Assembly (NCBI GenBank): GCA_014379705.1
Contig: JACMLI010000420.1
Span: forward strand, 1 to 30,750
DNA: 30,750 nt
Origin: Gemmatimonadaceae bacterium
Lineage (GTDB): Bacteria > Gemmatimonadota > Gemmatimonadetes > Gemmatimonadales > Gemmatimonadaceae
Direction: 5' to 3'
Below are positions 9,728-12,980 of the stretch, piece by piece. The notes beneath the pieces are model-generated. The model had not been told where the DNA came from. It saw only the letters and a program-made list of their open reading frames with translations, and searched no databases. Numbering within the stretch: position 1 is the first letter of the stretch; each line of letters opens with the position of its first letter. The position numbers and the translations under genes were made by a program.

Positions 9728-10441
9728 ATGTCCGACCTGCCCTACCAACGCATCCTGCTCAAGCTCTCCGGTGAAGCGCTCGCCGGTGACAAGGGCTTTG
9801 GATACGATTTCGAGCGGGTCGCCCAGTTCGCCGACGAGATCAAGACGGTCGTCGAGATGGGCGTCGGGGTCGGCCTCGTCATCGGGGGCGGGAACATGGT
9901 GCGTGGCACGCAGCTCGCCGCGCTCGGCATGGATCGGGTGGCGGCGGACTACATGGGCATGCTCGGCACCGTCATCAACGCCCTGGCACTCCAGGACACG
10001 CTCGAGAAGAAGGGCCTCGACACGCGGGTGATGACGGCGATCCGCATGGAGGAACTCGCCGAGCCGTACATCCGGCGGCGGGCCCTGCGCCATTTCGAGA
10101 AGGGGCGCATCGTGGTGTTTGCCGCCGGCACGGGTAACCCGTATTTCTCCACCGATACGGCCGCCGCCCTCCGCGCGATCCAGATCAAGGCCGACGTCAT
10201 CATCAAGGCCACGTCGGTCGACGGCGTGTACAGCGCCGATCCCAAGAAGGACCCCACCGCGACGCGTTACGAACAGATCTCCTACCGCGACGTCATGCTC
10301 GAGGAACTCGGGGTGATGGACCAGACGGCAGTCACGCTCTGCAAGGAGAACAAGCTGCCGCTGATCGTCCTCAACATTCACGAACCAGGCGCTGTCGCGC
10401 GCGCGGTGCGCGGCGAGCGCGTGGGAACCATGGTACGATGA
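9728..10441 (+). CDS. pyrH: Uridylate kinase
   Basis: [60 protein letters not shown]. Confidence 0.99.
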
Positions 10442-10989
10442 GCATCGCCAACATCCTCAAGGACGCGAAGGCCCACATGGACAAGGCCTTCGAAAGCACC
10501 AGGCACGAGTTCTCCTCGATCCGCTCGGGCAAGGCCACGACGAGCATGCTCGACACCGTGCGCGTCGAGATGTACGGGAGCCACATGTCGCTCAACCAGG
10601 TGGCGTCCGTCGCGGCACCCGAGCCCCGACTCCTCGTCGTGACCCCCTTCGACAAGGGGCAGATGAAGGCGGTGGAAAAGGCGATCCGTGAGTCGGACCT
10701 CGGGCTCGATCCGTCGGTCCAGGGGGCGATCATTCGCGTGCCCCTGCCGTCGATGAACGAGCAGCGCCGCAAGGACCTCGCGAAGATCATCCACAAGTTC
10801 GCCGAGGAAGGTCGCATTGCGGTGCGTCACTGGCGCACGGAAGCGCGCGCCGGCTTCAAGAAGCTCGAGGGCGTCTCCGAGGACGACGTGAAGCACGCGG
10901 AAAAGGACCTGCAGAAGCTCCATGACGACTGCATTGCGCGGATCGACGCCGCAATGAAGGCGAAGGAAGCCGAGATCATGGAGGTCTGA
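10438..10989 (+). CDS. frr: Ribosome recycling factor
   Basis: IRSGKA....LD.V.VE.YG, LNQVASV..PEPR.L.V.PFDK, IRVPLP.MNE.RRKDL; ATGA overlap with pyrH. Confidence 0.99.
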
Positions 10990-10992
10990 CCC

Positions 10993-11850
10993 ATCGGCGA
11001 ACTGGCGCGCCGAATCGCGGTCGCGGTCGTCGGCATTCCGCTCGTCATCGGGCTCGTCTACCTCGGCGAGCTCCCGTTGGCGCTGCTCCTCGGGTTGCTC
11101 GGTGGACTCGGTGCGTGGGAGCTCTACCGCATGGCGCGGCAGCTCGGCATCGAGGCCATGGACGTCGTCGGTATCGCGATCGCGGCCGCGATCCCGCTCT
11201 ACGCTGCACTCGATCGTTTGGGTGTGCTGCAGAGCCCCGCCGCGATCGCCGCCGTGGTGTTCATTGCGCTGCTCGGGATGAGCCTCTGGGCGCGCGGCGT
11301 CGGGGGACGCCCCCTCGAGTCGGTGGCCGTGACCGCGTTCGGAGCCGTGTACGCCGGTGGGATGCTCACCTTCGGCTTCCTCCTCCGGCACCATCGCTTC
11401 GCCGTGACCGCCGAAGCGGGGACGGCCCTCGTCCTCTTCCCGATCGTGCTCACCTGGGCGTCCGACATCGGCGCATACTTCGTGGGCCGCGCCATCGGCA
11501 AGGCGAAGCTGATGCCGGCCATCAGCCCCGGAAAGACGCGTGCCGGCGCCGTGGGTGCGCTGGTGGTCACCGTGCTCGCAGCGCTGGCATACAACACGTG
11601 GGTGCTCCGACCGATGGCGCAACTGACCCTGGCTCCGATGATCGTCGTGATCTTCGGCTTGGTGGTGAGTGTCGCCGCGCAAGTCGGGGACCTGTTTGAA
11701 TCGATGCTCAAGCGGGAAGCGGGCGTGAAGGACAGTTCGCACCTGTTGCCCGGCCACGGTGGGATCCTGGACCGCCTCGATTCGATCTACTTCGTGCTGC
11801 CCATCGCGTACCTGGTCCTCAACCGATTGCTCGTCGCCGCTCCGCGATGA
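10993..11850 (+). CDS. cdsA: Phosphatidate cytidylyltransferase; start uncertain (ATC 10993 proposed)
   Basis: TWASDIGAYFVGR.IGK.KL.P.ISPGKT..G, GDLFESMLKREAGVKDSSHLLPGHGGILDRLDS. CdsA-like N-terminal helix ELARRIAVAVVGIPLVIGLVYLG lies upstream of the first TTG (11077), and GGAGGT (10980-10985) sits 7 nt before ATC. Confidence 0.93.
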   Translation: MGELARRIAVAVVGIPLVIGLVYLGELPLALLLGLLGGLGAWELYRMARQLGIEAMDVVGIAIAAAIPLYAALDRLGVLQSPAAIAAVVFIALLGMSLWARGVGGRPLESVAVTAFGAVYAGGMLTFGFLLRHHRFAVTAEAGTALVLFPIVLTWASDIGAYFVGRAIGKAKLMPAISPGKTRAGAVGALVVTVLAALAYNTWVLRPMAQLTLAPMIVVIFGLVVSVAAQVGDLFESMLKREAGVKDSSHLLPGHGGILDRLDSIYFVLPIAYLVLNRLLVAAPR

Positions 11851-12980
11851 CCCGGGCCGGCGTTGCCATCCTCGGGGCCACGGGGTCGATCGGACGCTCT
11901 GCCGTGCGCGTGCTCAAGCGTCATCCGGAGCGCTTCGCCGCGCGTGCCCTCACCGCGCATTCCGCCCTCGACGACCTCGCGAAGTGCGCCGCGGCGCTCG
12001 ACGTGCCCTGGGTGGGGATCGTCGAGCCATCGGGGGAGGTGCCAGCCGGCTGGTGTCAGGGGCCGAGCGTCCTGACGACGGCGGCGACCCTTCCGGGTGT
12101 CGACATCGTCCTCAATGCCGTCGTCGGCGCCGCGGGCCTCGACGCGACCCTGGCGGCCCTCGGCGCGGGCAAGCGGGTGGCCCTCGCCAACAAGGAATCC
12201 CTGGTGGTCGCCGGGCAGCTCGTCATGGACGCCGCGCGAGCCGGGCAGGGAAGCGTCGTTCCCGTCGACTCCGAACACTCGGCAATCCTTCAATGCCTCG
12301 CCGGGCGCCCTGGTACCGAAGTCCGTCGGCTGATCCTGACGGCGTCGGGCGGCCCCTTCCGGACCTGGGACGCCGAACGCCTGCGCGCGGCCACCCTTGC
12401 CGACGCCCTGCAGCACCCCACGTGGCAGATGGGACGAAAGATCACGGTCGACAGTGCCACCCTGGCCAACAAGGCCATGGAGGTCATTGAGGCGCACTTC
12501 CTGTTCGGGGTGCCCTACGAGAACATCGAAGTCGTCGTGCACCCCCAGAGCATCGTGCACTCGATGGTGGAGTTCGTCGACGGGAGCGTCCTGGCCCAAC
12601 TCGGGGTTCCTTCGATGGAGCTACCGATCCTGTACGCGCTGACGCACCCTGACCGACTGGACGACACCGGGGTACCACGGTTCGACCCGGTGGGGGCATC
12701 GCCGCTGACGTTCGAGCCCGTGCGCCACGATGCTTTTCCGGCGCTGCAACTCGGGGTCGGTGCCGGGCGTAGGGGAGGCGCGGCTCCCGCGGTGTTCAAC
12801 GCGGCGAACGAACAGGCCGTCGCCCTTTTCCTCGATGGAAGGATCCAGTTTGGCGGCATTCCGTTGGCCATCAGCGCGGCGCTCGACGCGTTAGGCGGGA
12901 TGCCGGGTTCGACGCGTGACCAGTTGATGGCGGCCGACGCGGCCGCCAGGGACCTCGTTCGGGAACATTGCAGATGCTAG
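11847..12980 (+). CDS. dxr: 1-deoxy-D-xylulose-5-phosphate reductoisomerase (MEP pathway)
   Basis: ILGATGSIG, ALANKESLV, PVDSEHSA, LTASGGPFR, HPTWQMGRKITVDSAT; ATGA overlap with cdsA. Confidence 0.98.
   Translation: MTRAGVAILGATGSIGRSAVRVLKRHPERFAARALTAHSALDDLAKCAAALDVPWVGIVEPSGEVPAGWCQGPSVLTTAATLPGVDIVLNAVVGAAGLDATLAALGAGKRVALANKESLVVAGQLVMDAARAGQGSVVPVDSEHSAILQCLAGRPGTEVRRLILTASGGPFRTWDAERLRAATLADALQHPTWQMGRKITVDSATLANKAMEVIEAHFLFGVPYENIEVVVHPQSIVHSMVEFVDGSVLAQLGVPSMELPILYALTHPDRLDDTGVPRFDPVGASPLTFEPVRHDAFPALQLGVGAGRRGGAAPAVFNAANEQAVALFLDGRIQFGGIPLAISAALDALGGMPGSTRDQLMAADAAARDLVREHCRC

What the first reader, a model, noticed from the sequence alone, without database searches (positions are those of the whole stretch)
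10980..11079. cdsA follows the frr UGA in frame with no ATG/GTG/TTG: non-canonical start, read-through, or RRF-sensitive re-initiation
Seen: ...GAG GTC TGA CCC ATC GGC GAA CTG GCG CGC CGA ATC GCG GTC... continues in the frr frame straight into a CdsA-like first helix (ELARRIAVAVVGIPLVIGLVYLG). The first canonical start (TTG 11077) would delete that helix. A perfect SD, GGAGGT (10980-10985), lies 7 nt before ATC (10993). The stop is UGA-C, followed by a 6-bp hairpin TCGGCG/CGCCGA (10994-11013). Established: AUC can serve as a weak start codon, UGA-C is a leaky context, and without RRF ribosomes re-initiate in frame just after a stop codon. Inference: (a) a deliberately weak ATC start; (b) an RRF-CdsA read-through fusion; (c) a feedback device in which low RRF raises CdsA, linking ribosome recycling to phospholipid synthesis; or (d) a G-to-C sequencing error in ATG.
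Basis: partly seen in the sequence, partly recalled or inferred. Interest (0 to 1): 0.62.

Follow-up and report, generated by a model that had tools for sequence, protein, structure and literature searches.

The report
cdsA starts at conserved ATC codon
In this uncultured soil bacterium (family Gemmatimonadaceae) the essential lipid-synthesis gene cdsA has no normal start codon and most likely starts at a rare ATC codon three bases after the end of frr; nine related assemblies share this, so it is a real but fairly ordinary weak start, not an error or a fused protein.

Summary
GGAGGT (10980-10985) lies 7 nt before ATC 10993.

Nine independent assemblies share the invariant block ATCATGGAGGTCTGACC(C)ATCGG: seven species of the same genus, one species of a neighbouring genus, and one metagenome contig. 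This excludes a sequencing error.

Five of the nine have 3 nt between TGA and ATC. Four have 2 nt, which puts cdsA out of frame with frr. An RRF-CdsA read-through fusion, or strictly in-frame resumption, therefore cannot be the conserved mechanism.

In the sister genus and other relatives, ATG or GTG sits in the same alignment column as ATC. No canonical start is shared downstream: the first one falls anywhere from codon 17 to codon 61, and the window's TTG is CTG or CTC in the other eight. The start-less stretch encodes transmembrane helix 1 and evolves mostly by synonymous changes.

Best reading: a near-cognate AUC start served by a strong Shine-Dalgarno (SD) site, probably coupled to frr termination. 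It would throttle CdsA and, through ATGA overlaps, the downstream genes. NCBI already annotates this ATC start in one relative.

This is a new member of a known kind, of moderate to low interest. RRF- or IF3-sensing remains untested speculation. Unchecked notes of this scan flag ATC starts of cdsA in other genomes.

The parts
10438..10989 (+). frr (ribosome recycling factor), 183 aa, stop TGA 10987-10989; its ATG overlaps the pyrH stop (ATGA at 10438-10441)
   Evidence: Pfam PF01765 RRF, 196 bits; sequence
10980..10985 (+). Shine-Dalgarno GGAGGT inside the last frr codons (Met-Glu-Val), 7 nt before ATC
   Evidence: Sequence. Invariant in 9 of 9 ATC-clade sequences, although the Glu, Val and stop positions could vary silently. 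A Glu codon three codons upstream does vary between GAG and GAA. The sister genus with ATG starts has GGAAGT. GGAGG occurs upstream of only 11 of 207 unambiguous starts in this genome.
10990..10992 (+). Spacer CCC between the frr stop and the cdsA start; CC in 4 of 9 relatives
   Evidence: The one-base indel changes the frr/cdsA frame relation, so this stretch is not coding in the cdsA frame.
10993..10995 (+). ATC, the proposed near-cognate start codon of cdsA
   Evidence: Invariant 9 of 9. It aligns with ATG/GTG of the sister genus and other genera. NCBI protein MCC6319387.1 (285 aa, begins MGELARR) is annotated from this codon in a relative.
10993..11850 (+). cdsA (phosphatidate cytidylyltransferase), 285 aa if started at ATC
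   Evidence: Pfam PF01148, 204 bits; 4Q2G/4Q2E match E 4e-25 from residue 6
10996..11076 (+). Leader without a canonical start, encoding the N-terminus and transmembrane helix 1
   Evidence: Codons 2-28 show 307 synonymous against 162 non-synonymous pairwise codon differences among the 9 sequences. They align to TM1 of TmCdsA.
10994..11013 (+). Potential 6-bp hairpin TCGGCG/CGCCGA overlapping the start codon; not supported as a conserved structure
   Evidence: Local fold z = -0.58. 4-6 pairs are kept, with one G-U change and one mismatch, and no compensatory change. RNAalifold does not choose it.
11077..11079 (+). TTG, first canonical in-frame codon; not the start
   Evidence: It is CTG or CTC in the other 8 sequences. 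The first canonical codon falls at codon 17, 20, 29, 35, 47, 59 or 61 in different species.
11847..12980 (+). dxr; its ATG overlaps the cdsA stop (ATGA 11847-11850) and no SD is visible, so its translation is probably coupled to cdsA
   Evidence: Pfam DXP reductoisomerase domains. The ATGA or GTGA overlap is kept in 16 of the 20 relatives checked (L042, L013, L015 and L009 deviate). Sequence.

Best explanation
cdsA is translated from the near-cognate codon AUC at 10993-10995. Initiator tRNA would read it as Met, giving a 285-aa CdsA with an intact first transmembrane helix. The ribosome is positioned by the strong SD GGAGGU formed by the last frr codons, 6-7 nt upstream. Because the frr stop lies only 2-3 nt before AUC, much of the initiation probably comes from ribosomes that have just terminated on frr (translational coupling). 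Inferred consequence: the weak codon acts as a fixed step-down valve in the polycistron rpsB-tsf-pyrH-frr-cdsA-dxr-rseP. It would keep the membrane enzyme CdsA far below the abundant factor RRF, and through the ATGA and ATGCTAG overlaps it would also limit Dxr and RseP. Like other AUH starts, it should be sensitive to IF3 proofreading. Shown here: the anatomy, conservation across nine assemblies, alignment with relatives' ATG/GTG, the lack of any shared alternative start, and purifying selection on the leader. Inferred: Met initiation, coupling, the throttle function and IF3 sensitivity.
For:: anatomy; the block ATCATGGAGGTCTGACC(C)ATCGG is identical in 9 independent assemblies, with CdsA 71-84% identical to the window's in the seven full-length rows, while flanking synonymous sites vary. 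ATG or GTG occupies the same column in the sister genus (12 species) and other genera, and L017 has frr-TAG-CCC-GTG, the same layout with a canonical codon; no shared canonical start downstream, CTG 11002 is CTC/CTT in 7 of 9, and the leader evolves mostly synonymously; the leader encodes the start of the Pfam domain and TM1 of the solved CdsA; the ATC sequences fall in one well-supported clade (SH-aLRT 99), and a single origin is not excluded; overlapping stop/start junctions and no promoter or terminator matches between pyrH and dxr. NCBI already annotates the ATC start in one relative. Literature: AUC initiates at about 1-2% of AUG in E. coli and yields N-terminal Met (bioRxiv 10.1101/063800); weaker start codons tend to go with stronger SDs (PMC5622118); re-initiation works only at overlaps or very short distances (PMC10666635).
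Against: There is no experimental evidence (N-terminal peptide, Ribo-seq) for any member of this uncultured clade. ATC is the preferred Ile codon in a 67.5% GC genome, so 9 of 9 identity of the codon alone is weak evidence. The SD is partly constrained by the frr C-terminus Met-Glu-Val. SD use in this genome is modest: about 23% of confidently placed starts have a core motif. In the four 2-nt-spacer species an in-frame CTG overlapping the frr stop is an alternative, and NCBI chose it (P0051). The throttle function and the coupling are inferences.
Confidence: 0.8

Rival explanations
1. RRF- or recycling-sensitive device: CdsA is made mainly by post-termination ribosomes that resume at AUC just after the frr stop. 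Low RRF (or low IF3) would then raise CdsA, Dxr and RseP, linking ribosome recycling to membrane synthesis.
For: AUC is always 2-3 nt after the frr stop, whereas the ATG-starting sister genus has spacers of 11-120 nt. The SD lies inside the frr end. Near-cognate codons are the ones that initiation proofreading rejects (general knowledge).
Against: The in-frame relation is not conserved (2-nt against 3-nt spacers). In E. coli, four studies found no effect of RRF depletion on coupling (PMC7538156; PMC12548453). L017 and its genus use the same stop-CCC-start layout with GTG, so proximity to frr does not require a special codon. Nothing in the sequence is specific to sensing.
Confidence: 0.07
2. 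Read-through of the leaky UGA-C makes an RRF-CdsA fusion protein, which is the functional CdsA.
For: In the window and 4 relatives cdsA is in frame with frr, and the stop context is UGA-C.
Against: In 4 of 9 sequences (L005, L007, L008, L054) the spacer is 2 nt, so read-through runs into another frame. The spacer length changed at least twice on the tree. There is no supported stimulatory structure and no Rfam match.
Confidence: 0.02
3. CdsA starts at a downstream canonical codon (TTG 11077 in the window, as automatic gene callers assume), or at CTG 11002, and lacks all or part of helix 1.
For: Prodigal-type calls in databases give 257-, 269-, 266- and 239-aa versions.
Against: TTG 11077 is CTG/CTC in the other 8, and the first canonical codon ranges from codon 17 to 61. 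CTG 11002 is CTC/CTT in 7 of 9. Neither has an SD. The leader is under purifying selection and matches TM1 of the solved structure.
Confidence: 0.04
4. Assembly or sequencing error: the true codon is ATG.
For: The window comes from a fragmented MAG (758 contigs, 74% complete).
Against: ATC occurs in 9 independent assemblies from different projects.
Confidence: 0.01

Closest known systems
E. coli infC and pcnB (AUU start codons)
   Same: A natural near-cognate AUH start on an otherwise ordinary gene, giving low and, for infC, IF3-sensitive translation. These are the only two confirmed non-canonical starts in E. coli according to bioRxiv 10.1101/063800.
   Different: The codon here is AUC, not AUU. 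The gene is a membrane lipid enzyme. The start sits 2-3 nt after the stop of a highly expressed upstream gene and uses that gene's last codons as its SD. There is no experimental proof and no evident autoregulatory logic.
Translational coupling by termination-reinitiation at overlapping or closely spaced genes (ATGA/TGATG type; PMC6728339, PMC10666635)
   Same: Very short stop-to-start distance (2-3 nt), SD within the end of the upstream gene, and an operon whose other junctions are ATGA overlaps.
   Different: The restart codon is near-cognate. Coupling itself is not demonstrated here.
E. coli cdsA
   Same: The same enzyme, also with a weak start codon: TTG in NC_000913 at 195677.
   Different: TTG is a canonical alternative start. 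E. coli cdsA follows ispU, not frr.
frr-cdsA junction of Gemmatimonadaceae genus g12 (L017)
   Same: The same layout: frr stop, CCC, start codon, then Ser/Gly-Glu-Leu.
   Different: It uses GTG and GGAAGT rather than ATC and GGAGGT.

Membership tests
Genes with a near-cognate (AUH/CUG) bacterial start codon | The conserved N-terminus of the protein lies upstream of every in-frame ATG/GTG/TTG | tested here: met
   The Pfam domain starts at residue 7 of the open frame and 4Q2G aligns from residue 6; the first canonical codon is codon 29
Genes with a near-cognate (AUH/CUG) bacterial start codon | The near-cognate codon occupies the column of ATG/GTG in orthologues | tested here: met
   the sister genus and other genera have ATG or GTG at that column
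Genes with a near-cognate (AUH/CUG) bacterial start codon | Conserved across independently sequenced relatives, so not an error | tested here: met
   ATC in 9 of 9, with an invariant 17-nt block upstream
Genes with a near-cognate (AUH/CUG) bacterial start codon | Ribosome-binding site at a functional distance | tested here: met
   GGAGGT lies 6-7 nt upstream; the GGAG spacing mode in this genome is 6-7 nt, against 8-9 nt here
Genes with a near-cognate (AUH/CUG) bacterial start codon | Initiation at that codon shown experimentally (N-terminal Met peptide, toeprint or Ribo-seq) | not testable with these tools
   Uncultured clade; no data found
Programmed stop-codon read-through fusion | The downstream ORF is conserved in frame with the upstream stop | tested here: not met
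   4 of 9 sequences have a 2-nt spacer and are out of frame
Programmed stop-codon read-through fusion | A conserved stimulatory RNA structure after the stop | tested here: inconclusive
   A 4-6 bp hairpin is possible, but z = -0.58, there is no covariation, and alifold does not pick it
Termination-reinitiation coupling | Stop and restart codon overlapping or within a few nt | tested here: met
   2-3 nt in all 9
Termination-reinitiation coupling | Downstream translation depends on upstream translation | not testable with these tools
   Needs a reporter with a premature stop in frr
CdsA / CTP_transf_1 (PF01148) | Full-length match to the family profile above the curated cut-off | tested here: met
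   204 bits against a cut-off of 24, profile positions 2-262 of 264

The most novel reading that the evidence does not exclude
The AUC start placed 2-3 nt behind the frr stop is a sensor rather than a fixed throttle. Post-termination ribosomes not yet split by RRF, or 30S subunits short of IF3, would initiate at AUC more readily. A shortage of recycling or initiation-fidelity capacity would then raise CdsA and, through the ATGA overlaps, Dxr and RseP, tying envelope lipid and isoprenoid supply to the state of the translation machinery.
Probability: 0.07. Interest if true: 0.7.

Novelty: new member of a known kind. Interest (0 to 1): 0.36.

Why it matters
The finding corrects the annotation of an essential gene. 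Public databases give the same cdsA at least six different N-termini in this clade: 285 aa from ATC, 287 aa from CTG, and 269, 266, 257 and 239 aa from downstream codons. Most of these lack transmembrane helix 1. It also adds a well-supported natural AUC start, kept since the common ancestor of two genera, to the very short list of conserved near-cognate bacterial starts. In one survey, AUG-to-AUU switches were 1 in 61,358 and no AUC switch was recorded (PMC5622118). The case offers a clean natural comparison for studying how start-codon strength, SD strength and stop-start distance trade off at an operon step-down point: an AUC clade with GGAGGT and a 2-3 nt spacer, against an AUG sister clade with GGAAGT and 11-120 nt spacers.

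Tried and rejected
- **Sequencing error:** rejected, because 9 independent assemblies agree.
- **Read-through fusion or strictly in-frame resumption:** rejected, because the spacer is 2 nt in 4 sequences and 3 nt in 5.
- **CTG 11002, ATC 11014 and TTG 11077 as starts:** none is conserved. ATT 11035 (Ile codon 15) stays an AUH codon (ATT, ATC or ATA) in all nine but has no SD and lies inside helix 1.
- **Conserved hairpin:** not supported.
- **Known RNA family at the junction:** none found in Rfam at E up to 1.
- **Internal promoter or terminator between pyrH and dxr:** none found by the consensus scan, which is not validated for this phylum.
- **A genome-wide habit of non-canonical starts:** not seen. 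Only cdsA has the SD plus ATH signature among 8 of 1689 candidate ORFs. That scan only detects leaders of 20 or more codons in ORFs of 200 or more codons.
- **16S anti-SD check:** not possible, because no 16S 3' end is present in this MAG.
- **The look-up of encoding contigs:** I used the genome search at family level instead.
- **Collection scans with the junction pattern:** these returned only the clade itself plus one new contig.
- **Tree:** the careful run did not finish, so the quick IQ-TREE result is reported.
- **Unpublished genomes:** The other unpublished genomes flagged enter only the tallies.

Full report
**Observation**

The window is contig C600 of a fragmented MAG (758 contigs, 74% complete). 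Titles of matching public records place it in the Gemmatimonadaceae.

- frr (Pfam RRF, 196 bits) runs 10438-10989 and ends ATG GAG GTC TGA.
- The same frame continues open from 10990 to TGA 11848-11850. It encodes a full CdsA (PF01148, 204 bits, profile positions 2-262 of 264, starting at residue 7 of the open frame).
- The first in-frame ATG/GTG/TTG is TTG 11077, codon 29 counted from ATC.
- GGAGGT (10980-10985) lies 7 nt before ATC 10993.
- The solved Thermotoga CdsA (4Q2G/4Q2E) aligns from residue 6, so the stretch without a start encodes transmembrane helix 1.

**Relatives**

A protein search of 41 related genomes, a 401-genome family sample, and pattern scans of the genome and metagenome collections gave nine independent copies of the same junction. 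They are seven species of the window's genus (L003-L008, L010), one species of a neighbouring genus (L054) and one metagenome contig (L037).

All nine carry the identical block ATCATGGAGGTCTGACC(C)ATCGG. Synonymous sites just upstream (GCC/GCG/GCA, GAG/GAA) and just downstream (GGC/GGT/GGG, GAA/GAG, CTG/CTC/CTT, CGA/CGC) vary. CdsA identity to the window's protein is 71-84% in the seven full-length rows. This rules out a sequencing error.

**Frame relation**

Five sequences have TGA-CCC-ATC and four have TGA-CC-ATC. In those four, cdsA is out of frame with frr. On the CdsA tree the spacer length must have changed at least twice.

The bases between TGA and ATC are therefore not coding in the cdsA frame, and translation must begin at or after ATC. 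An RRF-CdsA read-through fusion, or resumption strictly in frame after the stop, cannot be what selection maintains.

**Why ATC is the start**

- In the sister genus (12 species, CdsA 67-74% identical by the window-query tblastn) the aligned column is ATG in 11 and GTG in 1, followed by the same Gly-Glu-Leu-Ala-Arg-Arg. Other genera show Met or Val followed by Ser-Glu-Leu.
- L017 has frr-TAG-CCC-GTG, which is the same layout with a canonical codon.
- Within the ATC clade no alternative is shared. The window's TTG is CTG/CTC in the other eight, and the first canonical codon falls at codon 17, 20, 29, 35, 47, 59 or 61. CTG 11002 is CTC/CTT in 7 of 9, and ATC 11014 is GTC in 8 of 9.
- Codons 2-28 show 307 synonymous against 162 non-synonymous pairwise codon differences, so they are translated and under purifying selection.
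- In the four 2-nt species a CTG overlapping the frr stop is in frame, but it directly abuts the SD and is out of frame in the other five.

**Ribosome-binding site**

GGAGGT is invariant in the ATC clade although it spans silent positions of Glu, Val and the stop codon. ATG-starting relatives mostly have GGAAGT.

In this genome only about 23% of confidently placed starts have an SD core, and 11 of 207 have GGAGG. This is therefore an unusually strong site paired with an unusually weak codon. That fits the reported compensation between start codon and SD strength (PMC5622118).

**Operon context**

The gene order is rpsB, tsf, pyrH, frr, cdsA, dxr, rseP.

| Junction | Sequence at the junction |
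|---|---|
| pyrH/frr | ATGA overlap |
| frr/cdsA | TGA-CCC-ATC |
| cdsA/dxr | ATGA overlap, no visible SD |
| dxr/rseP | ATGCTAG |

The cdsA/dxr overlap (ATGA or GTGA) is kept in 16 of the 20 relatives checked, including all seven ATC-clade rows (L042, L013, L015 and L009 deviate). No promoter-like or terminator-like site was found on the + strand between pyrH and dxr, and there is no Rfam match.

**Mechanism**

Shown: the anatomy, the conservation, and the absence of alternatives.

Inferred from established knowledge:
- AUC is read by initiator tRNA as Met at roughly 1-2% of AUG efficiency in E. coli (bioRxiv 10.1101/063800).
- Re-initiation after termination works only at overlaps or distances of a few nucleotides (PMC10666635).

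The most likely reading is therefore SD-anchored initiation at AUC, fed largely by ribosomes terminating on frr. This would act as a fixed step-down between abundant translation factors and low-abundance envelope enzymes. E. coli cdsA also uses a weak start, TTG.

Four E. coli studies found no effect of RRF depletion on coupling (PMC7538156; PMC12548453). None of them tested a near-cognate restart codon, so the idea is unsupported rather than excluded.

**Hairpin**

The six pairs exist in the window. However, the local fold is no better than shuffled sequence (z = -0.58). Across the clade 4-6 pairs remain, with one G-U change, one mismatch and no compensatory change, and RNAalifold does not choose the hairpin. 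The sister clade keeps 3-4 of the pairs in all but two rows (L049 keeps 1, L050 keeps 2). I treat it as a by-product of the Gly-Glu-Leu-Ala-Arg-Arg codons.

**Rarity within the genome**

Of 1689 long coding-like ORFs, 8 have a coding-like leader of 20 or more codons without a canonical start. Only cdsA combines this with an SD and an ATH codon right after the upstream stop. This is a gene-specific feature, not a general relaxation of start-codon choice. infC of the same genome probably starts at ATT, as in E. coli.

**Novelty**

NCBI already annotates the ATC start in one relative (MCC6319387.1, 285 aa). It chose the CTG in two others (MBK8249369.1 and MBL8959179.1, 287 aa) and a downstream GTG in another (MGQ0649940.1, 269 aa). 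Prodigal-type calls give 266, 257 and 239 aa.

I found no paper on cdsA start codons next to frr. Unchecked notes of this scan mention ATC starts of cdsA in other, unrelated genomes. I did not test those.

**Verdict**

This is a real near-cognate start conserved across a clade, and a new member of a known kind. It is useful mainly for annotation and as a natural case of start-codon and SD compensation.

Noticed in passing
G000 contig C62 (locus L038, minus strand; IF3_N match at C62:1276-1479): infC seems to start at ATT (ACT ATT CAG GAC ACA ACC AAG CGC ATT CGC GTC AAT), about 9 nt after AGAGGG. The only canonical codons upstream would add an implausible extension of about 30 residues. This is the classical IF3-autoregulated start type.
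   Followed up: partly
L016 (G023), L063 (G192), L064 (G275): uppS-cdsA junctions: Three other Gemmatimonadaceae species lack ATG/GTG/TTG at the aligned CdsA N-terminus. An in-frame CTG overlaps the uppS stop (CTGA). In L063 and L064 a GTG a few codons inside helix 1 is an alternative. These may be independent weak or non-canonical cdsA starts.
   Followed up: partly
window 10993-11850 and orthologues (P0001, P0002, P0003, P0021, P0051, P0121): The same gene carries at least six different annotated N-termini in public databases (285, 287, 269, 266, 257 and 239 aa). Most of them lack transmembrane helix 1.
   Followed up: yes
L069 (E. coli NC_000913, 195677): E. coli cdsA is annotated with a TTG start 12 nt after ispU. 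The enzyme thus has a weak start codon in the model organism too.
   Followed up: partly
window 12968-12980: rseP (Peptidase_M50 plus PDZ) probably starts at ATG 12974, overlapping the dxr stop by 7 nt (ATGCTAG). TTG 12968 is the alternative.
   Followed up: no
G157:C16:58030-58884 and G036:C130:865-1737: The cdsA matches in these two relatives contain one in-frame TGA each. This could be a frameshift, an assembly error or a pseudogene; I did not examine it.
   Followed up: no
G000 contig C465, minus strand, from 4846: Another coding-like leader of 21 codons without a canonical start (DEKDKPIPIPTIDAALGLFRG), with several ATC codons but no obvious SD. I did not examine it further.
   Followed up: no
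whole genome G000: Shine-Dalgarno use looks modest. About 23% of 207 unambiguous starts have GGAG, GAGG or AGGA at -20 to -5. GTG is nearly as common as ATG in that sample (89 against 102).
   Followed up: partly
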